Positions 14,797 to 48,862 of a stretch of 64,000 nt of DNA are shown here, one piece after another. The translations under genes and the position numbers were made by a program. The stretch spans positions 384,001-448,000 of the forward strand of contig CM000434.1 of assembly GCA_000165345.1 (NCBI GenBank), read 5' to 3'. The stretch's first letter is position 1. Each line of letters opens with the position of its first letter. The notes beneath the pieces were generated by a model. That model had not been told where the DNA came from and searched no databases. It saw only the letters and a program-made list of their open reading frames with translations.

Positions 14797-17700
14797 TTAT
14801 AGCCACGGCATCCATGTTGGCTTCATGGCAGAAAGGTTTTTAGGATCCGTAGAACATTCTATCAGCTCAAGTACACTTCTGTCAATGAGTTGACTATTTT
14901 CATTGATTGGCCTAGGATTAGTTAATACTGCTATTTTCTCCATCATCCTGCGAACATTTCTATCTACTTTCTCCCTAATTTCAACGTTAGAAAGTAATCT
15001 TTGCTGCATTATCTGGGAAATTGTGTTCTGAGAATGGTCATTTGCTGTGTTGGGCGAGTTTATGACTGTTTGCGAACTATTATCAAAGTCCGATTCTACG
15101 GAAGGGTTATTTGGTTTTTGATATAAATTACGATTTTGAGGGATCTGTAAAGCTCTATGGACAGAAAATGCATGCAAATCGTCTCTAAGCAGGGAGCAGA
15201 GTAAATTTCTTACGTGAAACTCATATTTTTGTAGACATTGAGCAAATGCGAGCATAGTACCTGGAAGGATACCATTCTTACCGAAGGGACCCATTAAATG
15301 TTCCATATTTCTTGTTAACCTAAAAGGAACCTTTTCAGTTTTATCAATAAGCAGTGTGGATGAGACATAAGAGGATTTTAATTCTGATTGATAAACCTGC
15401 CCAGTATCCAACGAAATAAATAGTTTTCCGGGAGTAACATCATTTACACCTAGAATATATGAAAATATTGACAGTAAACCCAAGTGAGTAGTAAACTGTT
15501 TAGTGAATAAAAATGATTGGTCATGCGAGTTGAACTTTCTTAAAATACTTCTTTTAAAGATATTATCTGGGACCCAGTTATCACACAGCTCAGTATAAAT
15601 TTTTAGCATTTCCTTATCAAGTTGTGAATTATTTATATTATTCAACTTCCTGAGTGAGATATTGATAAGCTTTCTATGAAGTAATATCGGGAAGTCAAGG
15701 TCTTTTATTGGGCATGTACAGTTACTGCTATTCGCTTCCTCTTCAAAAAGTTCGGTAAAGCTCTTCTTATTTCCTGTATCTTCAATGATACGGCAACGTG
15801 GATGCAATGGTATACAAGGTTGTATTGCAAAAGAAATATTTCTGGACCTGGTTTCCTTATATTTATATAAAAGTGTATTTAGTGTAACTTGAAGATGAAG
15901 AATGCGTTCCTCAACCTTTTGTTGAAGCCCACTATATGGCTGAATTAAGAAGTGTATAGTACTTCCACTAGAAGTGATAAATCCTATTCTTTTCAGTGTG
16001 TATGATTGTCTTACAACCGTTTCAACTGTAGGCAATGATCTATGTAGGTATATAACACCACCAATCGGATTATTACTATTTGTGTTTTCTAAAACAGCAA
16101 AATTTCTTAAGTAGAGACTTTCAGAGACAATTCTCAAATATTGTCCAGGAACTTCCAAACGAATATTGATTCTATGGAATAGATCGCAGAGAGTAGTTGA
16201 GAAATCCGATAACAGAGACTTTCCTCTGATATTTTCATTTGAATACCTTTCTGTACATTTAGTAAAGTGATCTTTCCACTTCTTGAGCTTTTCCAAGACA
16301 TAGTCGAGTTTTAATTGTGAAACCCTTTCAATAGGAGGGTTTGTGTTATTACATAGATAAACATGAAAGTCATTTTTAAATTCGTTCCAATATTGTTTGA
16401 TAATGTTCTTAGATCTTTCGAAAGATTTATTATTCAAGGATGAAGACTTATTCAATAACTGCTCGTACCTTCTAATGATATTGTGTTCCAAAAAGTGTGT
16501 TCCTATATTTGGGAAAATGTCGGATGCTTTTGTATCACTCAAATTCGAATCTTGAACAATGATTGATTCATCATTAATGGGGGAGATTTCAATTGTCATT
16601 TGGAATAATGTACGTATTGCACATAAGAGTTCATCAAGTGGGTCAGGTTTACAGTGTAGTACAATGTCTTCAACCCAGTGTTCAAGAGCTAAAGTTAGTG
16701 CGCCGTGTCTAATTCTACAAGTATTCATCAGTGATTCAATTCTTTGCCATCCCAAAGAAATAAAACTTGGATAAATTCCAGAAGAAGGCGGAGGAGGAGG
16801 ACCCTGGCTTGTATTTTCAGTTTCAGAATTAGAGGATAAATACCAATACATGTGAGCCATTTCTCTTTTTTCAAGATAGCTACTTCTAATATTAAAATAA
16901 ATACTTTGTGGGAATATTAACACAATCTTGTTTAAAATATGCAAAATAGCACTTCCTTCAATTCTATCTATTCCAGCTATCAATTGAGGAATCCATGGAA
17001 GCCAAACAGCGCAAGGTAAATGATCCGAATATTTTTTAAATGCTAATGAGAGATATTTTCCATCAGGAGAGTCATGTGGCAATAACCAAAGTACCCTTGA
17101 AAGTAAAATAGAGTATTTATCTGGCCTTAAATATATTCCCATTAAGTAAGAGATTACTGCATTAACTGCATAACTCATGTTTTGGTGTATATATAATAGC
17201 CTATCAGTATATTGAGCCCAAGTGATCCATCCTCTTGCGAATAGTGGATATACCTTTAAAGAAGAAAGTAAGTCTGCATTAACACGAACAACTGAAGTAC
17301 TAATACCTGTAGCAGACGTATTATTTAAACCAGGGTGTCCTTGTTCTGAGTTTAATACATTGCTTCCTGTTACAGAGTTTGCATTATTTGGAATTTCGCC
17401 ATCAATATAATAATTAGGATATAATTTATTTGAAATAATCCCCTTTAACCTCAGAAATTCTGCCCTGTATTCATCAAAATAAGGTTCCGGGCATTTTTGG
17501 AAATCAGTCATATTAAGGATATTTAGGCCAGTTCTTAATTGAGTAGTATCAGATAAGCAAAGCTTAACTTTTTCCAAAGTCGCGAGAAATGTTTCTGCCC
17601 TATATGCATCTCCTCCTGAAACCTGTAAATGATTTTGTAATCTCTGTAGCAATGCAACCGAGACCTCTGGTAAACGATGGGATTTCCTCGCAATTGATGC

Positions 17701-20700
17701 GAATTTTATCATTGTCCAGGGCATATCCTGCAAATAACTTGGCCAAAGAGATTTTGCTTGAGAAGTTAAATGGTCTGACCTACTAATTAGATTCATAATG
17801 ATAGAGAAAACAAAGTTTCTCCATACAAAAAGATCGTTCCATAATATCATACTGTCCCACTTATTAGGCAATCTATCTCTCCATACATTCAACATTCTGG
17901 CCTCAAAATAACCTGGCGTTGAGTTGCTTGTATTCTGAAGGTTCGAATGTGAGTTAATATTTACATGGGAATTTGGATTCCCTGTATTAATTGATTGTGA
18001 GCTTTGAGCAAGATTATTTGCATTTGAGTGATGAATAATATAGTTTGAACCAAAATTTGCAGTATTCTGAACAATATTACCGTTTAAGGAGTGATTAATA
18101 TTGCTATTTGGACCATCTGGGTAAAGTTTTCTTTCTATATCTGATGAGAGTCTGAAGCCTTCTTGCAGCTCTATATATTGCTGGAAATTTAACAGTAGAG
18201 GAACATGACATGTAGTTACTACGCTTGGTAGCATAGCCCAAAAATTTAGCACAGTTCTATAGCCAATTGAACAGTGGCGTTCAAATTCGGCTAGTTTTGA
18301 TCTCGAACTATTTTGAATTATGCTTTGTGAAAACTGCTGGCAGTAAGCACCATTATTTAAGTTTTGACTATTTGTTGAATTATTTACTCGATTCTGGTTA
18401 CTTATATTAGTACTAGAGTTAGACAGCGATTCTTGAGTTCCCTTACTTTGCAAATTCCAATTGTTATTAATTCCTCCTAATAGCAAGTCATATAAAGAAT
18501 GATATGCTTGACATAACTTTGTAATAGGGTTATGCAGAATATACTTGTTGACTAGTTTCTCCACTAAAACCCAATCTTGTAGTTTTGATGAGCATTCCAA
18601 TTGAAGTTGAGGGTTTCTGCGCTCCTTAGCAAACTCGTTTAGGGTATTCCATTGATTTAGATGCTTTGCGCAAGCAACCCAACTATCTATCCAAATCATT
18701 GTTTCATTATTTAATAGTGATGAATCAGAGTTTTCAAAAATTCTTGCCCAATTTAGAATATTATGGCTACAATCTGCATTACTATTAGTAGCTTTAGAAC
18801 TTGAATTATATATTGCATCAAGGTTATTGTAAAATATTTCCTGTGCTTTACTCCACTCCGCCTGCTGCATTAGCGCTAATCCCATATGGGTTTCGAGACA
18901 ATTGGAAAATGACCTTCTAATGCCAATTACAATGTCTTCTTCTTGTAATTCCCCATAAATTTGTGCCAATATCATCCAAGAACTATCGGGTCCATCATCT
19001 TGAACTAAGTTATTTTTAAAATCATGATTACAATTCACTTTAGAAATAAAGTTATTTTCTTTCTTATTAATGTTTGCTTGGGAGTTACTCGTATTAATCT
19101 GGTTACTTAAATAGTTAGATGCAATATGCCAACATCTTAATTTCGTTGATAAATGCAAAAGCAAAGTTGCCGGTAAAATAGGTGGATTGTCACATGATAG
19201 TAGGGAATCAAGTATAACATGCGGTATTGTCCATTCAGAAGGCATTGCTGAACTCACTCTATGATGTCTTTCTTTAGAAAGCAATTCAATAATATCAAGC
19301 GTTAATTCATTTCTTTGTTGGTGCTCCAAGTTATTCCAAATCCACGGAAAAATAGTTTTCCAAAGAGAGATTGAAATGGATTCGCTTGTACTTGAGAAGA
19401 ACAATAAAGAGTCGATTGCTAAACCTGGATTCCGTTTCAGGTTCCCAATAACATCATCTAATAAATCGAATTTCACTTGCCCAGCTACAAAATTATTATG
19501 CTGTGGTCTGTTAATTAGCGAAGAATTAGATTGATCGCTACTTGAGCTGTCTAGTATGCAAATCAAAGATATATCACTACTAGTGCTCGCATTGTCATCT
19601 TCATAATTCTCTTTTAATTTTAAATTTTGTAGTTCCCACCATTCTAATTCTACTTCTGTTAAGTTAGTCTTAAAATCATTTGTCTTAAATGATTGATAGC
19701 TTTCATTTGAGGATTTATCTAATTTATTAATAATTTGTTGCTCTATTGAGGGAAGAATAGATGGGAATGCTCCCATTTTATTGCTGATGATTGAACTTTT
19801 TTCACTAAAAGTCATTGTAGGCATTAGCAATTCTAGAAATTGAGTTATATAGAATCTCTCTGCAAGCACATCAAAATTTGATGTTGTGAATAAATATCGA
19901 AGCCTACCGAACAAATCTTTTGGCAGCTTTTCATTAAACCATTTTAGAAATCCAAGTTTTATTTTTGGATGAGGCGAAGCCAAACCTAAAAGTGCGCATT
20001 TCTCAAGTTGAGTCAGTGCCTTTTCTGTAAAGACAAAGGTATTAGCTTGTTTAAGAACAATATTGTTAGAAGAGCCTTCGATTTTTGCTTTGAGATTTCC
20101 CTCATAATTTAAAATAATTTTCAGAATTTCATCCTCGTGATTATTTAGAATTTCCTCCAAAAACGAATGGTATATTAGATGCATTTCAAATCTACGATTT
20201 CTATCGCATATTAAAGACCATCCTGTCAAAAGCGTAATCACTAACTCGTATTTCAAAACTTTAATAGAAGTCTCATCAGTTTTGTTTTTGTAATCTAAAT
20301 TCGAATAGAATTTTAATATTTCATCTAAATTATACACTTTAATTCTTCTCTTTCCCTCAAAATCATTCTCGACCGATTCATTCGAATCAACTATCAAAGA
20401 GTTGCAAACAAACAAATTTGAACCTTCTTCTACCTCAATTTCTAGCTTCTCCGATAAATAACTATTGATATTCAACTGATGATTAAATATCCATCGTCCA
20501 AGAATACTCATTAATAGATGAACAATCCCACCTTGAAATGTTATCAATCCAAAATCTCTCAGTAGAACAATAATATGTTGTCTAAAAACATTGCTATTTA
20601 AGCTTTTCATTGTAAAATATGGTGAAATCAAAATTAGTTGAAACAAGTCCGCACAGTTATTTAGTATAGAAGTATTTGATCCATTCAAATGTTGTAGTGC

Positions 20701-23700
20701 ATTAGAGACCGTATGATTTAGATTTTGAGTGTTTGATCTTGAGGTTGAAATATTCGTGTTTTTATTAGCATTTGATATGTTTGATTTTCCGGATAAAGCG
20801 CTCGGCTGTAAGCTGTTTAAATTCTGCGAGTTAGAACTACTATAATAAGCGAGAGCCTTATCCAAAACATATATTATTAATGGAGAAAAGTATCTGAGAA
20901 ACATAACAGCAATTTCTGTTGTTTCTTCTTGAGATTTATGGACATCTTGTTCGTTCAAGGCAATACCCAAGACCATAAACGATGAAATAATTTTGATAGA
21001 AGTATGAAGCGAGATATTTCTTCCAGAACAATTCGTAGTTTGCTCTGAGTATTGTAGAAGATTCGAATTATCATTTGTTGTAGTCTGGTTATTTGATGTA
21101 ACTTTGGCTGGGAATAGTTCTGGTAACACCGATAATTCTTGATTTACTAGGGACCAAATACCAGAAGTTGAAATATCAATTAATCTAATATAGAATGAAT
21201 CTATTTTGTTATCTACTGTTAATTTTTTTGACAGAGGAACCTTGAAGTTGTCAACATAATTATAATCCAATTCTCTAGGCTGGCGATCACTATTTTGAAT
21301 ATTTTCTTCATTAGAATATATAAAATTTACAATTTTTGTTATAGAGTCTTTTAGTTGCGTCGAAGGATGAGGGATTATTTGAATTATCTTACAAATTAAC
21401 ACATATAGAGCTTCAGAGACATTCTTATCATTTGAAACAAAAGCAGGCTCAAGAATTTGTAGAATTGAATCTAATTGCATGATTATTGTGGCAGAGGTTT
21501 GATGGATGCAGAAAACCTGAAGCCCTGCGATAAGTGTCAATTGAAAAGCAATGAGGTTTGGCGAAATAGTTTGATGCTGACTGTTTAGCCCTTGGCTATT
21601 AGTACTCGGATTCTGTGAAATATTGGATCTGGTAGAGCTAGAAATCGATGATAAATGAGAATTATTACTTAAATTAAAACCTATATCCAACCAACTGATT
21701 TGTACTTTGCAATTTGGATAAATTAAAATAATTTTCGATATAGTGCTGAATGATTTTGAAACGATCTTGTGGTCACTACTAGATGCCAATAAAGCAAGCC
21801 TAAACCAAATTGTTATAACTAAATCAATAATTGAGACGGAAGATGTTTCATCTTCAATTTTTAATAATTCTGCAAGTTGCGGAATTGATGAAATATCAAT
21901 AGTTGCATTTGCAACATTTCTATATTCTTTACCAACTCCTGAACATATACTTTGGTTGTTTTTTTCATCTTTACTAATTGAATGGGATATCCTTCTTCTT
22001 TTTAATTCCAAGTTATCATCAGAATCGATACAATGACTCGAAACTCCTATATTCACTTCAGCATCAAAATTACACACCCAATTAGTGATTACAATTAATA
22101 TACCAAAAATCATTCTTTTCATTTCAGGTAGGAAGGGAATATTCAAAATATTATTTGAAGGGAATGCAGATTGACCAAAGTTGTTCGTCATACCAGAGTT
22201 GCTGCCTGCATAGGATGAACTTGTAGATTGAGAGCTATTTTGACCAACTGAACCAAACCCCCATAGTAATTTGGTTAAAGTTGATAAAACTGGAGAAAGA
22301 AGATAAATATATTCAAATGCAAATATATTAGGGCGAAGTGTGATAATATTCCAGTGATACAATTGTTGTTGTAAAGGCAAATTATAACTATCTTGAATTA
22401 GTATTGCAATCATCAACCTAAGCCAGTTAGAAAATAGCGTTTCAGGGGTTTTGTCTTTAATAAATAGTTTAGGAGGTGAAGGTATTAGAGAAAATAAGCT
22501 TTTATCACTTTCATTTTCTGGTGAAAAAATATTTAGTGTATCATCTTTGATGATCGGTTTGATATTGTGCAAAAGTGGAATAAATAAATTCAGAGCTCTT
22601 CGAACAGTAAGTCTAACTTCAGAAACTCCATAAAGCCTTGTAAGAGCTACCAACATTGAAAACAAAATCTTCTCTGGAAAAGGATATTTTTCTACAAAGT
22701 AACACATAGTAATGTAGCCCCAAGACTTGAGCAAAGAAGATTCAGTTCTCAAAATATTCCAAACATCCTTTATAAGTCTTTTTCTGTTATTGGATATTGT
22801 TTCTAGAGAGTATTTATTCTTCACAAGTAAAATAAGAAGTTTAAGTATCTCTATTTTAAGAGGATCATCTGTTGCAGAAAGTCCATTGGTTCCATGTAAT
22901 GGGATTACATTTCTTTCCAAACTTGGAAGTATTATTCTGGTTATTATACCTTCACAAATATAGTCATTTAACCATGAATCTTCACTATGACGAATTTTCT
23001 CATTGTTTCTATTGAATTCGTATTCTAACAGTGGAATCAGTATAAGCTGTATACATGCAATTTGAGTACCAGGTAGAATTGAAGATGTATCTATATTAGG
23101 TCCACTTGGATAATATCTTTGAATGAGTTGGTTAAAAAGTAAACGCTTTTCTTGATTTGAAAGAGTTTTTGGAACTGTACAAATAAGGAAATCGCGAAAA
23201 GCACCACTATCAAGAGTTGAACTTGTACCAAAAAGAGTAGCAATTGTCAAAATAACGTCAATCCTTCTTCTTTTCAAATGTTCTTTTACATCTTGCCCGT
23301 GAATAATTGTCGAGAGCAATGATATAATTAATTCTTTAGATGGGTAAATTGGTTGATTATTTAAGGTAGAGTTTGATGTTGAGCTAATTGAATTGTGAGA
23401 ATTATTTGCGTGCAAAGATGAATTCAAATTGTTATTAGAATTCTGTATATTCTGCCTCATCTGGTGTGAAGTAAACGAAAAGCTATTAGAAAATGTTTGA
23501 TCTTCAGTTAAATTTTGCCTCTGAAAAGATGAGGTAGAAGATTGAGAAAAGTTGGTAATCGATGAGGTATTTGAAGGAAGGCTAACTGCTGAATATAATA
23601 CACTTTTCATTGAATTCTGGACGGATAAAATATCGTTAATAATTTCGTCGCCCACCCTGTTACCATAGCATTTTTTTTCAAGGTATTCCTTATTTTGTAC

Positions 23701-26700
23701 ATTTTCAAGATTGTTTGTTGCAGTATAAAATCCAATAAGCATTTTATATAGCATAAAACACTCATTTGAGTGAAAAAAACTCCAAGGATGTTGCCATGCT
23801 ACAGTACCTTGATATGCTAATGATAGTTCAAATTTATTATCAAAATTTCCATGAGTGGAAATGCCTCCGCTTTTTGTGAATACAACTAGCCTGTTAAAAA
23901 TTGTATTATACATTGTAAGTAGTATATCAATAATTGTTAGGGCAGACCTATTACTAGATGCATAATACTCCAGGAAATCAATTACAAGCAAGCTCGGCCA
24001 CTCTTCGCAAAGACTATTTAAAACTCTTATTCCGTTCCACGCGCTACTATATGATTCAGTAAATGCAGGAGAAACCGGAATAACATTGGGGTTTGCTTTA
24101 TTAATGTTTTGCGGCGCCCCAACAACAGAGTTATTGATATTTTGTTGGACTGAAGATCCAGTGACTTGGGAAAAGTTTGCTGTGGGGATATATGAGTCAC
24201 ACTTATTCTCAACATTCTCTGCTTCTTCTAAAATCCTGTTTACTGTAGACTCAATGAGTTGAGTCCTTAGTTGATAGAGCTTTACTCTAATAACAGAACA
24301 TGGACTCATCTTAATCAAGTCTATAAGAAAATTAGCATATCGATCAGAAGCAAGTTGTTGAATTAGAAACAAGACAACGTTATGCGGAGAATGAGTCGCA
24401 AAAAGTGCCAAAGGAAGGCGAAAGGGTGATGAAATGGTCATTGATGTTGTATAAGATGTTATGAATGATGATATTGAGGACTGCATATTGCTGCTTCTAT
24501 CAAGCCCGGGAAAATTCCTCGTACCCAATATTGTCCCAACCACTTTTGAAACAAATTCGTCAGACCCTTGAGGTAATAAGTGAAAGATGCATACCATTGC
24601 AATTGCCATGTGCAAATCTTCCTCATATCGATTAAAAGTATCGATTTGAGTATTAGCCAGTCCCGTAGAAGAATTTTGAGCTTGCCTTATAGATGAGCTT
24701 GCTTGATTACTGGAATTTAAAACCTCTCTTTGATATTCATTTGGCCAACAAAGTCTTTGTAAGTGTTGCAAAAGCTTTTCACCTAGAGTTACATTAAAGC
24801 AAAAACATAGAAGTTCTAAAAGACGTGCCAATCCCTGAAGAACATGCACCGTTAATTTTGTTGCAGATGCCAGATGTACAAGTACGGGTCTAAGGCAATG
24901 CCTAAGCTGATCTTCAGGCAGAAGTTCGTACTGACTATTGTTTGTATTATTCATAGATGAATTGCAAATATTTGGGTTGCCATTTGAATCCTCAATACCA
25001 TCTATATTTAATAAATATCTCTCCAACCTTACAATAACCTTCAGAGTATGATGCGCAGCCTTGCAAATTTCTAAATCTTTTCTAGTCACGCAGCGGAAAA
25101 GAACTCCAATAATCTTCCATCTGAGCTCGTCTTGAGATGTTTTGGTTTGGTTGATTCCCAATTGACTATTCATTTGAAATTGTTGGTTAATATTTGTTTG
25201 ATGCTGGTTTTGATAAATTTGGTGTGGGTATTGCGTCTTCGATTGATTTACATTTTGTAAGTTTTGGTGGTTGGATTGAGTGCCAACCTGTGCAGGGTGA
25301 TTTACGGAAATATGCTGCGCCAATACTGGAATAGGCTGTTGTGTTTGCTGAAGTTGAACACCTTGATTTACATTTGTTTGGTGAGAATTGTGCTGCAATT
25401 GATTGCTTTGATTGAAATTAGAACTTTGATGTATTTGTGTTGAACAGTTTGAAGGAATTGCTGGAGAAATAACTGGTGAAATATTTGCAGAAACAGGAAC
25501 TGATATTGAGGAGTTGCTTCGGCTTCTGAGGAATTCGGACCAATTTGGATGAAGAAGTATAAGTTTTAAAAACCTGATTGAATAAATTTGAACTTGAACC
25601 TTATTTTTCCTAAAATCTGGGTTGCCTTTATTACCTTGACTATTTTGAGCATTAACTTGGATATTAGATTGAGAAAAGCTATTATTCGAATTTTTTTGTT
25701 GAGATTCATTCATCTCACAGTCTATTTCATCCCTTATTACAACAAAAACATCTTCAACGAACCTTCTGATAATTGTCGACGGAATTCCAATAGGCGATGG
25801 CCTAAGTGATGCTAGAAAACATAAAGTATCTAGGAAGGCAAGCTGATATGGGGTGCTACAGGTAGAGATTAATTTGGTCTGAAGCCTACTTAACAGCTGT
25901 TGTAGTAAGGTCGTTTGCGAAGTAGCATTAAGATTATTTGTATCGTTATTCCCAAACTGACTGCTGAAGCTGGTATTGAGTAAAGTTGCAACAGAAACAC
26001 CTGTAATATTAGATAACGTAATAAGACATTTTTGTGCCATTCTTCTACAGGCAGGTCTCAAAGATAATATATTTGGAGTTATTGAGTTCATACATAAATG
26101 GAATAAATGCTTACGCAAAATATCCAAAATTTCATCTGGAGGAGTATTGTTTGCCAAAGAATTCATAATTTCATCACGTATTGCAACTCCAGAGTACCAC
26201 TTATCCTTTGATTCAGTAATTAGCATTTCCATATAAACACGATAGCTATTACTCCACCAAAATTCAGAGTTATTTTTCTTTAATTCATTAGTTTCATTTA
26301 TCACAGTCAATAGATCCTCCCAATTTCTATCGTTTATATTAATAGACTCGCCAGATAATAAAGATAACTTATTTTTTGGAATAGTTATTCCGTATTTTGA
26401 TATGGGTATTTTAATAACTTTAGAGCTAAAATTTTCACAATTAACAAATAGTGCAAAAGGTTTTATTCCCGTGAAAACAGAGTAAATCAGCGCATCCAAC
26501 GCGTCCTCAGAACATCTTTCTGCAAAAGGATTACTATCCGCTCCAGAGTCTTTTGAAATGAAGAAAAGAGCGTCTGAAAGTTTCTGGAAATATGTCTGGG
26601 CCCAAATAGGTGGAATATGGTTAAGTAGCTCAATAATCAAGATACATGCAGCTGTTTTTTTACTCCATGAGATGTCATAGCACAAATTTACGATATTTGA

Positions 26701-29700
26701 CTCGAGTAGACATGGGAGTTGAGCGGTTTGAAACGCCCTATTAAAGTACAATAATGGAAAGTTTTCTACAAGATTGTAGTAAATATTTACCATGTTCTTT
26801 ACTGCTGCAAGGGCTATGTAGCTTGGCTCTGTATGTTTCAAATGGTTATTGTGAGAAATTGTAAACTGAACGTCGATCGTATCAAATAAAGCAGATAAGA
26901 TCGGAGCAACCGGGTCAGTTTTCGTATTAGACCAATATAGGTTCAAATTACAATGTTCGGGAATAAATGACCTTGATGCGGAATAAATAGCCAAATAATT
27001 TGTCAATCCATCACAAAATTCACCGACAGAGTCATGAAGTTCTTCAATAAGTGATAATGCCAAAATAAGTGATTTAGCAAATAGCTCAAGGTTATTCGAA
27101 TATGATGATTGGGCCTTAAAATTATTGCATTCAGAAATGTAGTCCATTGAAAAGGGAGTTGCCTCATTAGGATTCTCAATTTTCTCGGAATGCTTTTCGA
27201 GATAACTTGTTAGAAAATTGAAAAATGTTTTAATGGATTCCGTAGTTCCAATATCAGTCCAAAAGATCGAAAGATAGAGTAAAAGTAAATTTTTGATGTG
27301 CGTACTGCACATATTCTTAATTATTTTATTTGAGCTTATAAAATCTTTCTTAGAAATAGAAGATAAATATTTATAAACATGCTGCAGTGTATCATCAATT
27401 CTTAGAAACAAAGTTGTGTCTAGTTTATTGTTAATTGGGCTTGGTCTAATTAAAATGGGTACTTTTACACAAAGAGGGTCATTTACATCTAAAACTGCTG
27501 AATCTTTTAAGAACCATCTATTCTTCCCTCCCAATTTTCCTAGAATTCTTCCAACTAGTGTTGCATGCTGAAATGCTATAGATTGCAATGCATAGAAGGA
27601 TAAACTATTGTTCTTTTGATATCTGTGAAAGTTACTTAGCAATACTTGGGAGACAGGTAAAGGAATTGGAGGCGCAGGTTTCAATAGTTTACAAAGTGTT
27701 ACAAGAATTGATGGCCTTGTTTGAAATCTATGGGGCTGATGAAGTGAATTTGTAAGGATCGGATATAAGAAATCATGATGAAGATTATCAATCCAGAGAT
27801 CCAAACTTCTTAATGCCAATAAAACAAGCTCTGGATCATTGCTTTCAAGAGCATTAAGCATTGGACTAATTAATTGCCCCATATAAGGTAATAGTGACTT
27901 GAGCCTTGCCGGAACGGTAAGAGAGATTTCTAGCCAAATTTCACGATAAGGAGACTTAGTTTCTTTCTGCATTTTAATAGTCGTGTCTAGGAACCAGGGA
28001 AGAATAACTAAGAATTCCTTATAAATACCTGATGCTTTACCACCAGGGGTAATGCTTCTGAATAAAGATCTTAAGATTGACAGAAAGAAAATGTTATTTT
28101 GATATTTTGAGGCCATAGATGTACACAACGTGCATAAATCCACAACATATGGAATTAGAATAGTTTCATGTTGAGGATTCTGACCAATATATCTAAAGAG
28201 TTGCTTTAACAGCCTAGTAGATACAAGCCCAGATGCTATCTCATTGGTCTTATCCTTATTGACATTTTTTGAATTTCCCCCATAAATAAAAGTATCAGGT
28301 ATTGGTAAATCAATAATATTTTTCTGCATTTGAAATAATGAAATATTAATATTTTGAGTTAGAATATCAAATGGGAAAGGATGATCATCCGGATTTCCGT
28401 GTGGTGCAGCTGTGGGAGCAAAATTAATTAAATTATTTGGGTCATCTCTTGGATCAATAACGCTTTGAACTGCATCAGGAAATTGTATTGGTGTTCCAAA
28501 ATGGGAAATTCTTCCTCGAGAATATGGTATTTTCGAATGGCTTTCAACGTTGTCTATATGCGGGTCCACTACGTATCTTGAAAGAGCAAGTTTGTGATGT
28601 TCTGTTGGGTAGATTGAGCATGTCAAAGGTGTTGATGGGATATTCATGTTATTAACTTGTGCAATGAATGATGAAATGTCATATTGAGTAGATTCAGAAA
28701 ATAATTGTTTACCATTCAACGATTTCAGTAATATTTGAATAGGAGATAATTTACTACGTAATTCAGTAAATTTTGAGTTTGGCTCAACAGCTAAGGTATC
28801 TAATTTTAACATTAGATGTGGTAAAATCGATTCATAAAATACCTTTGCAGTGTGTTGTTGTACCCCCCAATAATGGAATATTAAAGAAATTTGTGGACTC
28901 ATACTTGTAGACCACTCGAATAATATCGAAAATGTAGCTTGAATTATATCTCCAAAAGATTGCGGGTGAATATAACACAGCACTGAAGCTAAAAGCTCTA
29001 AAAGCTCCTTCTCTTCTGGCATAATTGATAATGGAGAGTTTTGCTGAGGCTTAGCACCATTGTTCTGCCTTACAGCGTTATTGTGTTGATTTGCACCATA
29101 ATTACTCTGGATTGTGTTTGGAATGATTAGGGAGCTTGTTGGAATGATCTGGCATTCATTTCCACCTTCTTTTATTTTAAATAGGCCAGATGAGCTCATT
29201 GTGTACTGAAGACATTGACAGTATTCAACACTGCAGATTATGCCTTCAATTAATATCTTTTGTAGTAATTTACTTTCAGCCTCATTTAACATCACTCCAT
29301 TTGCAAGTTTTCTTACGTCAAAACGAGTAATATCAACATTGTTTGTATTGCTATTATTTGTTGTACCACTCATTCCTGAATGGTTATTATTTAAGATATT
29401 CTTGTTACTAATATCACTGCTTGGAATGGTATTCCTATTCAAAGTTGTAATATGAAAAATTGTTTGACGCGCACCAATTATGGTTGCACGAATAATAGGT
29501 CTAAGCTCTCTCAAAACATCAATGATTAATGGTTTGGTCTGATTTTCCATATCAGTTTCAGAATCAAGTCCTTTTTTCAATGCACTACAACCAGTTATCG
29601 AAATTTCACAATGACCTATCTGTGTATTTGCATAAGAAAACGAGTTATCTAACCAATTACCAATATTCGAAATTTCAATAAATTCATCAAGAAAATCGTT

Positions 29701-31425
29701 TAATACCGGCTTTAATGGTGTGAATGTAAGTGAATCGGTTTTTGAGTCGGGTAATCCTGGTATTTCCTTATTGATAGAGACGAGAACTAGATTATAAATT
29801 TGTCGTCGGAGCTGGTGAATTTTCAATGAAAAAATCGATAAAATATTCAATAAAATATCCCGAATAATAATATTTCTTTGAGTATTACTACTAGGAACAA
29901 AACCTTCTTTTTTTAATATATCTGGTAGAAATGCAGCAGATCTGATACAATAATGTTGCGCAGGTAAAGGAAGAGCTGTATCTAAAATATTTCTTGTGAG
30001 AGAATGTAGGCACTTCATAATTGAATCGAAAAAACTATCCTGATTCAAACTATTGCAGTATGAATTAAGGGAATGCTCAGCTCGCAAATATACAATTATT
30101 TCATGCAATATTGCAGAAGATAACACTTTAAGAGTTTCATAACCAGTACGTCCGTGCCCAATGAGAACTGCTTCATCAAGTAAAATTTCTATCCTATCGT
30201 AAAATCCCTGCCTAAATTCAGTATTCAAAATACTTCTTAGGCAAACCAATATTTCACGGCGCTGGTGAAGACAATATGGTGGGCAAAATAGTAATACCTG
30301 AATAAACCCCTGTATAAATGCTGACTGAGTTTGCCTTAGAGTTTCTGATATATGTTCGTCACCATTAAAACCCCTAAAAAAATGAACAAACCATAATATA
30401 ATTTTGCTACATGCAATCATATAATCCTGTACCAAAGATTTAAATGAAGATGAACGTATTATTTCTGGGATTTGTTCTGGGCTTATTTTTAGTTGACTTA
30501 TAGAATGGTTCTGGGATGCGCAAGATGATCCCATCAACTTTGGGTGGAAATCTCTAGGGAAAAGACTAACAATGTTTAAGCAAGAAACCAAATTAGGAGC
30601 AAAAATGGCGAAGTAACGTTCAATGAAGTGAGGATATAACTGAAAAATGTGCAATAAGGCCAGTGGTAGCTCTATCAGAATTCTTAATGATCGGTGACAT
30701 GGAAGGATCAAATTTTGAGAAGGGTTCGTATTATTTACATTAGTGGTGACGGGACCTCTATGAACATTTGATCTTACTTGATTTGTAATTTCAGTTAACT
30801 CTGGCAGAGTCGTTGAAAGAGCTCCACGAAAGAACAATTGATCAGGATCATCATTTACAGAGTTAATTTTGTCCGATTTAGTTGTTGAATTTCCACTTTG
30901 AATATAAATATCTTGCCCTTCAGTGCTAGAATTATTATTTCTATTTGAAATAACTTCCTGAATAAGTTGTGGCAAAGTGTGTTGTACATCTGTACATAAT
31001 CTTGATGCGAATCCAAGAAAGGATTCAACGACATTTTCTAATTTGTCTGTATAATTCTTGTGTAGAAAAACTAAATTACGAATTGCGAGTACTCCGACAT
31101 CATCGGTATCTCTATCAAGCAAATGTAAGCACAACTGCGCTAAATCTGAACAGTAGTTTGATATAACTTCATTCTGAGGCAACAATGATATAATCTCCAT
31201 ACATATTATACTTGATTTCTTATAATCATGTTTTTTTGCTGTATCATTCATAAGCAGTATGTTTCTGATCCCATCCAAACATTCTTCTAAAAATGAAAAG
31301 TAGGTTTGCTTATCAGTTGTGTATAGCTCAATTTGATCTCTTATATTTGTTAGAAATTCCAATTCCTCATTAAAATCATTTTGGCCAAATGATTTAAGTC
31401 TTGTGCCAACTTCTTTAATATTCAT
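14797..31425 (-). CDS. TRRAP: Tra1/TRRAP-family PIKK pseudokinase (SAGA/NuA4 scaffold), single ~16.6 kb exon, ~5540 aa with large Q/N/S-rich insertions
   Basis: C-terminus ...NLSAMKPTWMPWL matches the TRRAP/Tra1 FATC ending (...DPAWHPWL). The PI3K-like domain (FTTHLGLLSIFSYILGVNDVTPGKLFISLDTGQVYQSE) lacks the DRHxxN and DFG catalytic residues, as in Tra1/TRRAP. Long HEAT/FAT-like helical body. ORF-track start (31446) is TTG; the first ATG is at 31425. Confidence 0.8.
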   Translation of the reverse strand: MNIKEVGTRLKSFGQNDFNEELEFLTNIRDQIELYTTDKQTYFSFLEECLDGIRNILLMNDTAKKHDYKKSSIICMEIISLLPQNEVISNYCSDLAQLCLHLLDRDTDDVGVLAIRNLVFLHKNYTDKLENVVESFLGFASRLCTDVQHTLPQLIQEVISNRNNNSSTEGQDIYIQSGNSTTKSDKINSVNDDPDQLFFRGALSTTLPELTEITNQVRSNVHRGPVTTNVNNTNPSQNLILPCHRSLRILIELPLALLHIFQLYPHFIERYFAIFAPNLVSCLNIVSLFPRDFHPKLMGSSCASQNHSISQLKISPEQIPEIIRSSSFKSLVQDYMIACSKIILWFVHFFRGFNGDEHISETLRQTQSAFIQGFIQVLLFCPPYCLHQRREILVCLRSILNTEFRQGFYDRIEILLDEAVLIGHGRTGYETLKVLSSAILHEIIVYLRAEHSLNSYCNSLNQDSFFDSIMKCLHSLTRNILDTALPLPAQHYCIRSAAFLPDILKKEGFVPSSNTQRNIIIRDILLNILSIFSLKIHQLRRQIYNLVLVSINKEIPGLPDSKTDSLTFTPLKPVLNDFLDEFIEISNIGNWLDNSFSYANTQIGHCEISITGCSALKKGLDSETDMENQTKPLIIDVLRELRPIIRATIIGARQTIFHITTLNRNTIPSSDISNKNILNNNHSGMSGTTNNSNTNNVDITRFDVRKLANGVMLNEAESKLLQKILIEGIICSVEYCQCLQYTMSSSGLFKIKEGGNECQIIPTSSLIIPNTIQSNYGANQHNNAVRQNNGAKPQQNSPLSIMPEEKELLELLASVLCYIHPQSFGDIIQATFSILFEWSTSMSPQISLIFHYWGVQQHTAKVFYESILPHLMLKLDTLAVEPNSKFTELRSKLSPIQILLKSLNGKQLFSESTQYDISSFIAQVNNMNIPSTPLTCSIYPTEHHKLALSRYVVDPHIDNVESHSKIPYSRGRISHFGTPIQFPDAVQSVIDPRDDPNNLINFAPTAAPHGNPDDHPFPFDILTQNINISLFQMQKNIIDLPIPDTFIYGGNSKNVNKDKTNEIASGLVSTRLLKQLFRYIGQNPQHETILIPYVVDLCTLCTSMASKYQNNIFFLSILRSLFRSITPGGKASGIYKEFLVILPWFLDTTIKMQKETKSPYREIWLEISLTVPARLKSLLPYMGQLISPMLNALESNDPELVLLALRSLDLWIDNLHHDFLYPILTNSLHQPHRFQTRPSILVTLCKLLKPAPPIPLPVSQVLLSNFHRYQKNNSLSFYALQSIAFQHATLVGRILGKLGGKNRWFLKDSAVLDVNDPLCVKVPILIRPSPINNKLDTTLFLRIDDTLQHVYKYLSSISKKDFISSNKIIKNMCSTHIKNLLLLYLSIFWTDIGTTESIKTFFNFLTSYLEKHSEKIENPNEATPFSMDYISECNNFKAQSSYSNNLELFAKSLILALSLIEELHDSVGEFCDGLTNYLAIYSASRSFIPEHCNLNLYWSNTKTDPVAPILSALFDTIDVQFTISHNNHLKHTEPSYIALAAVKNMVNIYYNLVENFPLLYFNRAFQTAQLPCLLESNIVNLCYDISWSKKTAACILIIELLNHIPPIWAQTYFQKLSDALFFISKDSGADSNPFAERCSEDALDALIYSVFTGIKPFALFVNCENFSSKVIKIPISKYGITIPKNKLSLLSGESININDRNWEDLLTVINETNELKKNNSEFWWSNSYRVYMEMLITESKDKWYSGVAIRDEIMNSLANNTPPDEILDILRKHLFHLCMNSITPNILSLRPACRRMAQKCLITLSNITGVSVATLLNTSFSSQFGNNDTNNLNATSQTTLLQQLLSRLQTKLISTCSTPYQLAFLDTLCFLASLRPSPIGIPSTIIRRFVEDVFVVIRDEIDCEMNESQQKNSNNSFSQSNIQVNAQNSQGNKGNPDFRKNKVQVQIYSIRFLKLILLHPNWSEFLRSRSNSSISVPVSANISPVISPAIPSNCSTQIHQSSNFNQSNQLQHNSHQTNVNQGVQLQQTQQPIPVLAQHISVNHPAQVGTQSNHQNLQNVNQSKTQYPHQIYQNQHQTNINQQFQMNSQLGINQTKTSQDELRWKIIGVLFRCVTRKDLEICKAAHHTLKVIVRLERYLLNIDGIEDSNGNPNICNSSMNNTNNSQYELLPEDQLRHCLRPVLVHLASATKLTVHVLQGLARLLELLCFCFNVTLGEKLLQHLQRLCWPNEYQREVLNSSNQASSSIRQAQNSSTGLANTQIDTFNRYEEDLHMAIAMVCIFHLLPQGSDEFVSKVVGTILGTRNFPGLDRSSNMQSSISSFITSYTTSMTISSPFRLPLALFATHSPHNVVLFLIQQLASDRYANFLIDLIKMSPCSVIRVKLYQLRTQLIESTVNRILEEAENVENKCDSYIPTANFSQVTGSSVQQNINNSVVGAPQNINKANPNVIPVSPAFTESYSSAWNGIRVLNSLCEEWPSLLVIDFLEYYASSNRSALTIIDILLTMYNTIFNRLVVFTKSGGISTHGNFDNKFELSLAYQGTVAWQHPWSFFHSNECFMLYKMLIGFYTATNNLENVQNKEYLEKKCYGNRVGDEIINDILSVQNSMKSVLYSAVSLPSNTSSITNFSQSSTSSFQRQNLTEDQTFSNSFSFTSHQMRQNIQNSNNNLNSSLHANNSHNSISSTSNSTLNNQPIYPSKELIISLLSTIIHGQDVKEHLKRRRIDVILTIATLFGTSSTLDSGAFRDFLICTVPKTLSNQEKRLLFNQLIQRYYPSGPNIDTSSILPGTQIACIQLILIPLLEYEFNRNNEKIRHSEDSWLNDYICEGIITRIILPSLERNVIPLHGTNGLSATDDPLKIEILKLLILLVKNKYSLETISNNRKRLIKDVWNILRTESSLLKSWGYITMCYFVEKYPFPEKILFSMLVALTRLYGVSEVRLTVRRALNLFIPLLHNIKPIIKDDTLNIFSPENESDKSLFSLIPSPPKLFIKDKTPETLFSNWLRLMIAILIQDSYNLPLQQQLYHWNIITLRPNIFAFEYIYLLSPVLSTLTKLLWGFGSVGQNSSQSTSSSYAGSNSGMTNNFGQSAFPSNNILNIPFLPEMKRMIFGILIVITNWVCNFDAEVNIGVSSHCIDSDDNLELKRRRISHSISKDEKNNQSICSGVGKEYRNVANATIDISSIPQLAELLKIEDETSSVSIIDLVITIWFRLALLASSSDHKIVSKSFSTISKIILIYPNCKVQISWLDIGFNLSNNSHLSSISSSTRSNISQNPSTNSQGLNSQHQTISPNLIAFQLTLIAGLQVFCIHQTSATIIMQLDSILQILEPAFVSNDKNVSEALYVLICKIIQIIPHPSTQLKDSITKIVNFIYSNEENIQNSDRQPRELDYNYVDNFKVPLSKKLTVDNKIDSFYIRLIDISTSGIWSLVNQELSVLPELFPAKVTSNNQTTTNDNSNLLQYSEQTTNCSGRNISLHTSIKIISSFMVLGIALNEQDVHKSQEETTEIAVMFLRYFSPLIIYVLDKALAYYSSSNSQNLNSLQPSALSGKSNISNANKNTNISTSRSNTQNLNHTVSNALQHLNGSNTSILNNCADLFQLILISPYFTMKSLNSNVFRQHIIVLLRDFGLITFQGGIVHLLMSILGRWIFNHQLNINSYLSEKLEIEVEEGSNLFVCNSLIVDSNESVENDFEGKRRIKVYNLDEILKFYSNLDYKNKTDETSIKVLKYELVITLLTGWSLICDRNRRFEMHLIYHSFLEEILNNHEDEILKIILNYEGNLKAKIEGSSNNIVLKQANTFVFTEKALTQLEKCALLGLASPHPKIKLGFLKWFNEKLPKDLFGRLRYLFTTSNFDVLAERFYITQFLELLMPTMTFSEKSSIISNKMGAFPSILPSIEQQIINKLDKSSNESYQSFKTNDFKTNLTEVELEWWELQNLKLKENYEDDNASTSSDISLICILDSSSSDQSNSSLINRPQHNNFVAGQVKFDLLDDVIGNLKRNPGLAIDSLLFFSSTSESISISLWKTIFPWIWNNLEHQQRNELTLDIIELLSKERHHRVSSAMPSEWTIPHVILDSLLSCDNPPILPATLLLHLSTKLRCWHIASNYLSNQINTSNSQANINKKENNFISKVNCNHDFKNNLVQDDGPDSSWMILAQIYGELQEEDIVIGIRRSFSNCLETHMGLALMQQAEWSKAQEIFYNNLDAIYNSSSKATNSNADCSHNILNWARIFENSDSSLLNNETMIWIDSWVACAKHLNQWNTLNEFAKERRNPQLQLECSSKLQDWVLVEKLVNKYILHNPITKLCQAYHSLYDLLLGGINNNWNLQSKGTQESLSNSSTNISNQNRVNNSTNSQNLNNGAYCQQFSQSIIQNSSRSKLAEFERHCSIGYRTVLNFWAMLPSVVTTCHVPLLLNFQQYIELQEGFRLSSDIERKLYPDGPNSNINHSLNGNIVQNTANFGSNYIIHHSNANNLAQSSQSINTGNPNSHVNINSHSNLQNTSNSTPGYFEARMLNVWRDRLPNKWDSMILWNDLFVWRNFVFSIIMNLISRSDHLTSQAKSLWPSYLQDMPWTMIKFASIARKSHRLPEVSVALLQRLQNHLQVSGGDAYRAETFLATLEKVKLCLSDTTQLRTGLNILNMTDFQKCPEPYFDEYRAEFLRLKGIISNKLYPNYYIDGEIPNNANSVTGSNVLNSEQGHPGLNNTSATGISTSVVRVNADLLSSLKVYPLFARGWITWAQYTDRLLYIHQNMSYAVNAVISYLMGIYLRPDKYSILLSRVLWLLPHDSPDGKYLSLAFKKYSDHLPCAVWLPWIPQLIAGIDRIEGSAILHILNKIVLIFPQSIYFNIRSSYLEKREMAHMYWYLSSNSETENTSQGPPPPPSSGIYPSFISLGWQRIESLMNTCRIRHGALTLALEHWVEDIVLHCKPDPLDELLCAIRTLFQMTIEISPINDESIIVQDSNLSDTKASDIFPNIGTHFLEHNIIRRYEQLLNKSSSLNNKSFERSKNIIKQYWNEFKNDFHVYLCNNTNPPIERVSQLKLDYVLEKLKKWKDHFTKCTERYSNENIRGKSLLSDFSTTLCDLFHRINIRLEVPGQYLRIVSESLYLRNFAVLENTNSNNPIGGVIYLHRSLPTVETVVRQSYTLKRIGFITSSGSTIHFLIQPYSGLQQKVEERILHLQVTLNTLLYKYKETRSRNISFAIQPCIPLHPRCRIIEDTGNKKSFTELFEEEANSSNCTCPIKDLDFPILLHRKLINISLRKLNNINNSQLDKEMLKIYTELCDNWVPDNIFKRSILRKFNSHDQSFLFTKQFTTHLGLLSIFSYILGVNDVTPGKLFISLDTGQVYQSELKSSYVSSTLLIDKTEKVPFRLTRNMEHLMGPFGKNGILPGTMLAFAQCLQKYEFHVRNLLCSLLRDDLHAFSVHRALQIPQNRNLYQKPNNPSVESDFDNSSQTVINSPNTANDHSQNTISQIMQQRLLSNVEIREKVDRNVRRMMEKIAVLTNPRPINENSQLIDRSVLELIECSTDPKNLSAMKPTWMPWL

Positions 31426-31803
31426 ATTAACAAAAAGCCATATCAATTGAATAAAAAATAATTAATTTACTTAGATTCAAAAGTATAAAATAATAGAATA
31501 TCAAGTAACTACAAATTTCCTTTAATAATAGTTTTTTATAATTAGCTCTTAGCACAAAAAGAAATACGACATTTATCCTCTCACTAACTTTTATGACAAT
31601 AATTTATCCCGCATAATTAACGCAAGATCTTGGTACTGTATTAACTTGCGTCTACTAAATGTTAACAGAATTATAAGAAACAATTTTCAATTAAAGAATT
31701 TCATTAGTTAAACACTATGAACATTGCAAATTAGGAAGAGAATTAGCTATAAATACTAAACTAATTACATGAATTACGTTAAAAATATAGAATATATGTA
31801 GAC

Positions 31804-42766: not shown

Positions 42767-42862
42767 ATATTTCAAATTTTCAGCGATAAAGGTTAATTAT
42801 TTTATATTTTTTTCTTTCATGTGTAAAAAGAAATTAACTTGTACTGCCGCATAGAATTAATT

Positions 42863-48820: not shown

Positions 48821-48862
48821 AATGTTCAGATTTTTAAAAGATTTTTTCAACTATAAAATCAA

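What the first reader, a model, noticed from the sequence alone, without database searches (positions are those of the whole stretch)
14797..31446. Giant single-exon Tra1/TRRAP pseudokinase expanded to ~5.5 kaa by low-complexity insertions
The FATC terminus (…KPTWMPWL) and a catalytically dead PI3K-like domain (DRH replaced by NDV, DFG replaced by SLD.TG) identify Tra1/TRRAP. The protein is ~1,800 aa longer than yeast or human orthologs. The extra length is Q/N/S/T-rich, for example the QNQHQTNINQQFQ... block at ~25150-25560 and the N/S-rich blocks at ~18000-18450 and ~20700-20830. The 16.6 kb ORF is uninterrupted even though neighbouring small genes carry multiple introns.
Basis: partly seen in the sequence, partly recalled or inferred. 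Interest (0 to 1): 0.5.

Follow-up and report, generated by a model that had tools for sequence, protein, structure and literature searches.

The report
Cryptosporidium parvum giant Tra1/TRRAP gene
This is the already-annotated Cryptosporidium parvum chromosome 6 gene for Tra1/TRRAP, a catalytically dead kinase-like scaffold of histone acetyltransferase complexes; its large size (5,542 aa) is shared by the whole genus and is only partly due to low-complexity insertions, so the finding is correct in outline but ordinary.

Summary
The ORF is real. It runs 14797..31446 on the minus strand, and the true CDS starts at the ATG at 31425 (5,542 aa, about 631 kDa). Pfam finds Tra1_central, Tra1_ring, FAT, PI3_PI4_kinase and FATC in order. 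Solved TRRAP/Tra1 chains match at E about 1e-72, against 1e-12 for TOR.

The window is identical to three C. parvum chromosome 6 records. The exact protein is public (CAD98717.1, EAK89842.1), named 'Tra1p-like; C-terminal FAT domain plus phosphoinositide 3-kinase domain; very large protein'.

TOR2 GLGDRHPSN aligns with GVNDVTPGK, and HIDFGD aligns with QSELKS.

The extra length, about 1,650 aa against a fungal Tra1, sits in at least 13 places. Fifteen N/S/Q/T-rich blocks total 756 aa and can explain at most 43% of it (71% with a lenient cut-off). The rest is ordinary sequence. One example is a 180-aa insertion (aa 873-1065) that is well conserved across the genus.

Syntenic orthologs in seven other Cryptosporidium species are 5,471-5,879 aa, so the expansion is old. 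No immediate neighbour has an intron. Some newer gene models splice out 69 nt that encode a conserved Tra1 segment, which is probably an annotation error.

Verdict: already known, low interest.

The parts
14797..31425 (-). Complete Tra1/TRRAP coding sequence: ATG at 31425, stop at 14797-14799, 5,542 aa, about 631 kDa, no intron
   Evidence: Annotated start and product length agree with BX526834.1 and CP141123.1. The exact protein is CAD98717.1 / EAK89842.1.
30070..30756 (-). N-terminal HEAT region, aa 224-452, aligned to fungal Tra1 residues 220-432
   Evidence: domain 1 (i-Evalue 3.5e-08)
28231..28809 (-). Insertion of about 180 aa relative to fungal Tra1 (aa 873-1065). It is not low-complexity. 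It carries motifs conserved across the genus, such as DPHIDNV and IDPRDDPNNLI.FAPTAAPHGN
   Evidence: 193 residues against 13 in the reference, no residues in N/S/Q/T-rich windows; identity to the other three species is 0.45 at aa 901-950 and 0.62-0.70 at aa 951-1050.
27676..28236 (-). Tra1_central (PF20175) best stretch, aa 1064-1250
   Evidence: E 1.1e-80. domain 3 aligns aa 1066-1225 without net indel to fungal Tra1 736-895.
25708..27549 (-). Tra1_ring (PF20206), profile positions 1-462, aa 1293-1906
   Evidence: E 2e-26
25120..25473 (-). They lie between two Tra1_ring segments
   Evidence: One search shows homologous blocks in C. felis and C. ryanae, and a shorter S/T/P-rich block in C. 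andersoni.
24310..24378 (-). 69 nt (aa 2350-2372, VVLFLIQQLASDRYANFLIDLIK) spliced out as an intron in the 5,519/5,520-aa GenBank models. Most likely coding
   Evidence: The segment aligns to fungal Tra1 [23 protein letters not shown] (domain 5). Identity is 0.80 with no gaps across four species.
22564..25143 (-). Tra1_ring, profile positions 495-1013, aa 2095-2954. It is interrupted by the S/N-rich block at aa 2601-2698 (window 23332-23625)
20653..20847 (-). N/S-rich block, aa 3527-3591
   Evidence: Identity to orthologs is 0.33, against 0.64 outside the blocks.
19237..20022 (-). Tra1_ring C-terminal part, profile positions 1482-1670, aa 3802-4063
   Evidence: E 3.2e-17
17905..18483 (-). Two N/S-rich blocks inside the FAT region: aa 4315-4379 and 4465-4507
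   Evidence: At the site of the first block Cardiosporidium carries a G/R/K/E-rich insertion. The second block is absent from Cardiosporidium.
17086..17901 (-). FAT domain (PF02259) best stretch, aa 4509-4780
   Evidence: E 5e-14
15169..15918 (-). PI3K-like kinase domain (PF00454), aa 5170-5419
   Evidence: E 3.3e-20
15373..15450 (-). Degenerate catalytic and Mg-binding motifs. GVNDVTPGK (aa 5326-5334) lies opposite TOR2 GLGDRHPSN. QSELKS (aa 5346-5351) lies opposite TOR2 HIDFGD
   Evidence: gapless alignment to 5fvm_A and 6emk_A
14800..14874 (-). FATC domain, aa 5518-5542, ending KPTWMPWL
   Evidence: 23.7 bits, just under the 25.3-bit Pfam cut-off. One search aligns it to TRRAP ...PAWHPWL and fungal ...LWMPYL.

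Best explanation
The ORF is the single-exon Cryptosporidium parvum (chromosome 6) ortholog of Tra1/TRRAP, the one member of the PI3K-related kinase family that has lost catalysis and acts as a very large alpha-solenoid scaffold.

Shown here:
- The family's full domain order is present: HEAT 'central' and 'ring' regions, FAT, kinase fold, FATC.
- The His and Asn of the catalytic loop and the Asp of DFG are lost.
- The protein is about 1,650-1,800 aa longer than fungal or human orthologs. The extra residues lie in at least 13 separate places between conserved segments.
- Fifteen N/S/Q/T-rich blocks (756 aa) account for at most 43-71% of the excess. The remainder is ordinary sequence, part of it well conserved within the genus.
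- The whole enlarged layout is shared by eight Cryptosporidium species (5,471-5,879 aa). It therefore predates the split between gastric and intestinal lineages.
- The biased blocks keep their positions. They evolve about twice as fast as the rest and are not encoded by tandem repeats.

Inferred:
- As in yeast, human and Plasmodium, the protein most likely serves as the activator-binding scaffold of a MYST/NuA4-type histone acetyltransferase complex. Whether it also joins a GCN5/SAGA-type complex is doubtful in Apicomplexa.
- The biased blocks are most likely tolerated surface loops between helices.
- The conserved non-biased insertions may be lineage-specific interaction surfaces.
For: Domains and identity:
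- Pfam: Tra1_central 1.1e-80, Tra1_ring 5.2e-78 / 2e-26 / 3.2e-17, FAT 5e-14, PI3_PI4_kinase 3.3e-20, FATC 4e-05.
- Solved structures: TRRAP/Tra1 4e-72 to 1.7e-60, against TOR2 1.7e-12 and DNA-PKcs 7e-11. Ordered collinear anchors run along the whole length of fungal Tra1 9ynu_A.
- Dead motifs. The one retained Asp is Glu in C. ryanae.
- Public identity: the DNA is identical to BX526834.1, CP029785.1 and CP141123.1. The exact protein is named Tra1p-like.

Size and its history:
- Genus-wide size and synteny.
- Distribution of extra length and the share that is low-complexity.
- Conservation: identity 0.36-0.41 inside the blocks against 0.64-0.66 outside; gap fraction 0.11-0.14 against 0.03-0.06.
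- No tandem repeats.
- C. hominis differs by 109 residues and a net +1 aa.

Function in relatives:
- P. falciparum Tra1 co-purifies with MYST/NuA4 and was not found in the GCN5 complex (PMC11036802).
- T. gondii Tra1 is about 850 kDa and was not recovered with GCN5b (PMC13601556).
Against: - There is no expression, proteomic or interaction data for the Cryptosporidium protein here, so complex membership is inference from homologs.
- The FATC Pfam score is slightly below the curated cut-off.
- The anchor map rests on pairwise phmmer segments, two of them weak (domains 2 and 4). Individual insertion boundaries are therefore approximate.
- The low-complexity share depends on the threshold chosen.
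- No structural model was made, so 'surface loops' is untested.
Confidence: 0.93

Rival explanations
1. The gene is not single-exon. It contains a real 69-nt in-frame intron at window 24310-24378, as modelled in the 5,519/5,520-aa GenBank entries.
For: - Three deposited models (WKS78283.1 Cryptosporidium sp. 43IA8, KAL5368047.1 C. parvum, KAL3127521.1 C. hominis) omit exactly aa 2350-2372 although the DNA is identical to the window.
- The segment starts with GT and ends with AG.
- These models may have been guided by RNA-seq.
Against: - The 23 residues align to fungal Tra1 (VVLFLIQQLASDRYANFLIDLIK against [23 protein letters not shown], domain 5).
- Identity is 0.80 with zero gaps among four Cryptosporidium species.
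- The segment is in frame and stop-free in every species.
- Its 5' end (GTTGTC) is one of 33 GT...AG 69-mers in the ORF expected by chance.
- Other models, including the earliest ones (CAD98717.1, EAK89842.1, QOY41054.1, WRK32772.1), keep it.
- The C. ryanae model similarly drops 9 conserved residues (27 nt), which is too short for an intron.
Confidence: 0.1
2. The size excess is essentially neutral low-complexity growth driven by the AT-rich genome and replication slippage, with no conserved or functional content.
For: - Fifteen N/S/Q/T-rich blocks exist. They evolve faster than the rest.
- At one FAT site Cardiosporidium carries an insertion of quite different composition (G/R/K/E), as expected for a permissive loop filled according to genome bias.
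Against: - The blocks can account for at most 714 of 1,670 extra residues (strict) or 1,181 (lenient).
- The 180-aa insertion at aa 873-1065 has no biased windows and is conserved in the genus.
- No tandem repeats are present.
- Block lengths are nearly fixed between C. parvum, C. hominis and C. meleagridis.
- Block positions are shared across the genus.
- C. parvum is among the apicomplexans with the lowest low-complexity-region frequency (under 20%) (PMC4770516).
Confidence: 0.15
3. The ORF encodes a different PI3K-related kinase (TOR, ATM, ATR, DNA-PKcs or SMG1), or is a fused or mis-assembled gene model.
For: The kinase-fold region gives secondary matches to TOR2, ATM, mTOR, DNA-PKcs, ATR and SMG1, as expected within one superfamily.
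Against: - Tra1-specific HEAT models match strongly and in order.
- Tra1/TRRAP chains outscore every other PIKK by about 60 orders of magnitude.
- The catalytic motifs are degenerate.
- The sequence is identical in three independent assemblies.
- The gene is collinear and syntenic in the species whose loci were fetched.
Confidence: 0.01

Closest known systems
Saccharomyces cerevisiae Tra1 / human TRRAP (PIKK pseudokinase scaffold of SAGA and NuA4/TIP60; e.g. PDB 5ojs, 6ig9, 7kts, 8h7g)
   Same: - Same domain order, and collinear alignment from the N-terminal HEAT region to FATC.
- Degenerate catalytic loop and DFG motif.
- FATC ends in a W-x-P-W/Y-L type motif.
   Different: - It is 1,650-1,800 aa longer, with extra residues at 13 or more sites.
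- It has 15 N/S/Q/T-rich blocks.
- It keeps by chance an Asp at the catalytic-Asp position where human TRRAP has Arg. That Asp is not conserved in the genus.
- Its partner complexes are untested.
Tra1 orthologs of other Cryptosporidium species: C. hominis 5,543 aa, C. meleagridis 5,521-5,540, C. felis 5,487, C. canis 5,471, C. ryanae 5,524-5,533, C. andersoni 5,835, C. muris 5,879
   Same: - All lie in the same syntenic slot, between the RabGGT-beta and CPSF30-like genes.
- Every fetched part is a stop-free ORF.
- Identity over the fetched parts is 58-71% in the species fetched by synteny (C. felis, C. canis, C. ryanae, C. andersoni, C. muris). C. hominis and C. meleagridis are much closer (109 and about 370-390 differing residues of 5,542).
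- The insertion positions and the dead motifs are the same.
   Different: - The sequence and composition of the biased blocks differ. The Q-rich block, for example, is shorter and S/T/P-rich in C. andersoni.
- The gastric species are about 300 aa longer.
Toxoplasma gondii TgTra1 (TGME49_268370, about 850 kDa) and Plasmodium falciparum Tra1 (PF3D7_1303800)
   Same: - These are apicomplexan Tra1 proteins. [quoted passage not shown]
- Partial T. gondii entries align collinearly with the window protein.
- PfTra1 is a NuA4 (MYST) subunit (PMC11036802).
   Different: - T. gondii is even more expanded: about 4,480 aa where C. parvum has about 2,930 between shared anchors.
- T. gondii also has extra insertions inside the kinase domain that C. 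parvum lacks.

Membership tests
Tra1/TRRAP | Tra1-specific HEAT-repeat regions (Pfam Tra1_central PF20175 and Tra1_ring PF20206) N-terminal to the FAT domain | tested here: met
   Tra1_central E 1.1e-80. Tra1_ring matches in three collinear pieces (profile 1-462, 495-1013, 1482-1670), all far above the 27-bit cut-off.
Tra1/TRRAP | PIKK C-terminal architecture: FAT, then PI3K-like kinase fold, then FATC at the extreme C-terminus | tested here: met
   FAT 52.7 bits (cut-off 24.2), PI3_PI4_kinase 73.4 bits (cut-off 27.1), FATC 23.7 bits (cut-off 25.3, marginally below). The FATC tail aligns to the TRRAP and fungal Tra1 termini.
Tra1/TRRAP | Closer to Tra1/TRRAP than to any catalytically active PIKK | tested here: met
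   TRRAP/Tra1 chains at E 4e-72 to 1.7e-60. The next family is TOR2 at 1.7e-12. No phylogeny was built.
Tra1/TRRAP | Loss of the residues needed for phosphotransfer (catalytic-loop DRH...N and DFG) | tested here: met
   gapless alignment to TOR2: GLGDRHPSN against GVNDVTPGK (Arg, His and Asn lost, Asp kept); HIDFGD against QSELKS (DFG becomes ELK). The kept Asp is Glu in C. ryanae. The ATP-binding Lys could not be placed unambiguously.
Tra1/TRRAP | Physical subunit of NuA4/TIP60 and/or SAGA acetyltransferase complexes that binds transcription activators | not testable with these tools
   Only indirect evidence: the P. falciparum ortholog purifies with MYST/NuA4 (PMC11036802), and the T. gondii ortholog was not recovered with GCN5b (PMC13601556).
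Active PIKKs (TOR, ATM, ATR, DNA-PKcs, SMG1) | Intact DRH...N catalytic loop and DFG motif, plus family-specific N-terminal regions (e.g. FRB in TOR) | tested here: not met
   (motifs degenerate). (no family-specific domains other than those of Tra1). The neighbouring PI3K gene in the same window serves as an internal positive control with GDRH...DFG intact.

The most novel reading that the evidence does not exclude
The non-low-complexity insertions that are conserved across the genus (for example aa 873-1065, with the DPHIDNV and IDPRDDPNNLI.FAPTAAPHGN motifs) may not be filler. They could be parasite-specific docking modules that adapt the Tra1 scaffold to apicomplexan partners such as ApiAP2 factors, or to a NuA4-only role. 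That would help explain why apicomplexan Tra1 is not recovered with GCN5 complexes.
Probability: 0.2. Interest if true: 0.4.

Novelty: already known. Interest (0 to 1): 0.12.

Why it matters
It matters little as a discovery. The gene has been deposited and correctly named since the first C. parvum chromosome 6 and genome annotations. Oversized Tra1 has also been described in print for Toxoplasma.

Three smaller points are useful:
- Only part of the size excess is low-complexity sequence, and the enlarged layout is ancient within the genus.
- Several recent GenBank models probably carry a false 69-nt intron that removes a conserved Tra1 segment.
- The conserved lineage-specific insertions are candidate interaction surfaces, should anyone study the poorly understood NuA4/SAGA machinery of Cryptosporidium.

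Tried and rejected
- The first homolog search with the C-terminal 1,400 aa returned only a Cardiosporidium fragment and one weak hit. None of the Cryptosporidium orthologs (all over 5,400 aa) came back. Orthologs were reached instead through the syntenic neighbours and by exact look-up.
- Aligning the Tra1 kinase domain to the window's own PI3K gave only a weak local match. It was used only as a register check. The TOR2 alignment is the real evidence.
- An attempt to place the ATP-binding Lys through an N-lobe query did not display an active-kinase alignment, so that point is left open.
- Tandem-repeat origin of the biased blocks is rejected: no arrays were found.
- Babesia caballi's 5,562-aa model was considered as another giant Tra1. 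Its Tra1 match ends near residue 4,626, so its length was not relied on.
- Structure prediction of the conserved insertion was considered and dropped. Ortholog sequences from loci cannot be submitted, and a single-sequence model would not distinguish disorder from lack of alignment depth.
- Literature searches for the assembly accession and for 'Tra1p-like' found nothing.

Full report
**Observation.** The window has one open frame from 14797 to 31446 on the minus strand, 5,549 codons counted from a TTG. No other ORF of 150 aa or more overlaps it. The first ATG is codon 8 (window 31425), giving 5,542 aa and about 631 kDa. The public annotations use this start. The region is about 31-37% G+C. 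Random sequence of that composition would hit a stop roughly every 14 codons, so the frame is not chance. The protein ends in ...KPTWMPWL.

**What it is.** Pfam finds the full Tra1 architecture in order:
- Tra1_central, E 1.1e-80.
- Tra1_ring in three collinear pieces, E 2e-26, 5.2e-78 and 3.2e-17.
- FAT, E 5e-14.
- PI3_PI4_kinase, E 3.3e-20.
- FATC, 23.7 bits, just under the 25.3-bit cut-off.

Against solved structures, the C-terminal 1,942 aa match human TRRAP and fungal Tra1 at E 4e-72 to 1.7e-60. The best other PIKK, TOR2, reaches 1.7e-12. Collinear anchors run along the entire length of the 3,893-aa fungal Tra1 chain 9ynu_A.

**Source and prior knowledge.**
- Neighbouring proteins are found exactly on NCBI records BX526834.1 (C. 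parvum chromosome 6), CP029785.1 and CP141123.1.
- All four fetched stretches of these records have zero differences from the window.
- The exact 5,542-aa protein is in the public collection as CAD98717.1, EAK89842.1, QOY41054.1 and WRK32772.1. It is named 'Tra1p-like; C-terminal FAT domain plus phosphoinositide 3-kinase domain; very large protein'.
- Oversized apicomplexan Tra1 is also in the literature. [quoted passage not shown]

The finding is therefore already known.

**Pseudokinase status.** An 81-aa query around the catalytic region aligns without gaps to TOR2 (5fvm_A, 6emk_A).
- TOR2 GLGDRHPSN lies opposite GVNDVTPGK (aa 5326-5334).
- TOR2 HIDFGD lies opposite QSELKS (aa 5346-5351).
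- The Arg and His of DRH, the metal-binding Asn and the DFG Asp, Phe and Gly are all replaced. Only the first Asp is kept.
- The window's own PI3K gene (32876-35707, intact GDRH...DFG) gives the same register.
- The kept Asp is Glu in C. ryanae, and the preceding residues differ in C. muris, so it is not under catalytic constraint.

'NDV' is shifted by one residue, and 'SLD.TG' lies opposite TOR2 'DRITG', not DFG. I could not place the ATP-binding Lys unambiguously.

**Where the extra length lies.** I used the phmmer anchors to 9ynu_A and compared segment lengths. The total excess is 1,649 aa, spread over at least 13 places:

| Segment of the C. parvum protein (aa) | Extra residues |
|---|---|
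| 453-799 | +129 |
| 873-1065 | +180 |
| 1226-1286 | +39 |
| 1310-2167 | +319 |
| within 2168-2379 | +47 |
| 2380-2850 | +249 |
| 2958-3787 | +323 |
| 3873-4014 | +70 |
| several sites in FAT | +41 to +63 each |
| between kinase and FATC | +53 |

Windows of 30 aa with at least 60% N+S+Q+T define 15 blocks totalling 756 aa. Counting per interval, these blocks can explain at most 714 of 1,670 extra residues (43%). With a lenient 50% threshold the ceiling is 1,181 (71%). The lenient threshold also captures ordinary sequence, because the whole protein is 30% N+S+Q+T.

At least about 30% of the excess is therefore not compositionally biased. The clearest case is aa 873-1065: 193 residues against 13 in the reference, with no biased windows. 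It carries motifs such as DPHIDNV and IDPRDDPNNLI.FAPTAAPHGN that are conserved in four species.

**Comparison within the genus.** I found orthologs of the upstream neighbour (RabGGT-beta) and the downstream neighbour (a CPSF30-like CCCH protein), then fetched their contigs.
- The Tra1 slot is syntenic in C. andersoni (5,835 aa), C. muris (5,879), C. ryanae (5,524), C. felis (5,487) and C. canis (5,471).
- C. hominis (5,543) and C. meleagridis (5,521-5,540) fall in the same 90% cluster.
- All fetched parts, about 3,100-3,300 codons from either end, are free of stops.
- Identity to C. parvum over those parts is 58-71%.
- Inside the biased blocks, identity to the other species is 0.36-0.41 and the gap fraction 0.11-0.14. 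Outside them the values are 0.64-0.66 and 0.03-0.06. The blocks hold their positions but drift about twice as fast.
- The Q-rich block is recognisably homologous in C. felis and C. ryanae. It is shorter and S/T/P-rich in C. andersoni.
- There are no tandem repeats in the gene.
- C. hominis differs by 109 residues with a net length change of +1.

The expansion is old and stable, not recent slippage.

**Comparison outside the genus.**
- The Cardiosporidium fragment has a G/R/K/E-rich insertion at the very site of the C. parvum N/S-rich block aa 4315-4379. It lacks the block at aa 4465-4507 and has its own roughly 140-aa insertion in the kinase domain.
- T. gondii partial entries are still more expanded.
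- Among the 150 best representatives in a library of 1.84 billion proteins, most full-length Tra1 relatives are 3,500-3,900 aa. A minority exceed 5,000 aa.

**Single exon and neighbours.** The CP029785.1 model gives 5,519 aa for DNA identical to the window. It omits aa 2350-2372, which is window 24310-24378, a GT...AG 69-mer. A second C. parvum model (KAL5368047.1) and a C. hominis model (KAL3127521.1) omit the same residues.
- The segment aligns to fungal Tra1 (domain 5).
- It is 80% identical with no gaps across four species.
- It is one of 33 chance GT...AG 69-mers in the ORF.
- Other models keep it.

- All 14 other genes called within window 1149-42796 have gene spans equal to three times (product length + 1), so they are single-exon.
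- In the section 36954-58672, three small genes 13-21 kb from the Tra1 start carry introns: Mak16 at 44465-45302 (61 nt), ANAPC10 at 48862-49738 (175 nt) and DUF1764 at 52090-52487 (44 nt).

**Mechanism.**
- Shown: a catalytically dead PIKK with the complete Tra1 solenoid.
- Inferred from established knowledge of Tra1/TRRAP: it is a scaffold and activator-binding platform of histone acetyltransferase complexes.
- For Apicomplexa, the published data point to NuA4/MYST rather than SAGA/GCN5. PF3D7_1303800 co-purifies with PfMYST and was found only in the NuA4-like complex (PMC11036802). TgTra1 was not confidently recovered with TgGCN5b (PMC13601556).
- The biased blocks are most plausibly tolerated inter-helix loops. 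The conserved non-biased insertions could be lineage-specific interaction surfaces. Neither point was tested structurally.

**Verdict.** However, the gene is already annotated and named, the gigantism is a known and genus-wide trait, the motif mapping was off register, and low-complexity sequence explains only part of the excess. Interest is low.

Noticed in passing
window 24310-24378 (minus strand; aa 2350-2372): GenBank models WKS78283.1, KAL5368047.1 (5,519 aa) and C. hominis KAL3127521.1 (5,520 aa) splice out 69 nt that encode a segment homologous to fungal Tra1 and 80% conserved in the genus. This is probably a false intron. The C. ryanae model similarly drops 9 conserved residues (VCIFHLLPQ).
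   Followed up: yes
window 32876-35707 (minus strand): A 943-aa PI3K-type lipid kinase (PI3Ka + PI3_PI4_kinase) with intact GDRH...DFG lies two genes upstream of the dead-kinase Tra1. Two members of the same kinase superfamily are therefore about 1.4 kb apart, separated only by RabGGT-beta. The arrangement is conserved in C. andersoni, C. ryanae and C. felis.
   Followed up: partly
window 44465-45302, 48862-49738, 52090-52487: By span versus product length in CP029785.1, the only intron-bearing gene models among those checked (window 1149-58672) are Mak16 (61 nt), ANAPC10 (175 nt, possibly several introns) and a DUF1764 protein (44 nt). All are small genes far from Tra1.
   Followed up: partly
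window 1149-42796 compared with L008-L013: Gene order is conserved from C. parvum to the gastric species C. muris and C. andersoni: TSP1 protein, GTPase, RRM protein, MCM10, 281-aa protein, CPSF30-like, Tra1, RabGGT-beta, PI3K, ARS2/SERRATE, DEAD helicase. C. andersoni has one extra small gene (zf-NOSIP-like).
   Followed up: partly
P0001 (Cardiosporidium cionae) against window 18289-18483: At the FAT-domain site where C. parvum has an N/S-rich block, Cardiosporidium has a G/R/K/E-rich insertion of similar length. This looks like a shared permissive site filled with lineage-specific composition.
   Followed up: partly
P0170 (Babesia caballi GIX61556.1, 5,562 aa): The Tra1-like match ends near residue 4,626, leaving about 900 unexplained C-terminal residues after the kinase domain and no terminal FATC match. 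The gene model may be fused or mis-extended.
   Followed up: no
window 39887-42775 and 35877-37883 (BX526834.1 against newer records): The 2003 BX526834.1 models differ from the newer ones for two neighbours: 832 aa with an intron against 959 aa single-exon, and ARS2 at 598 against 668 aa. This shows annotation drift in the region.
   Followed up: no
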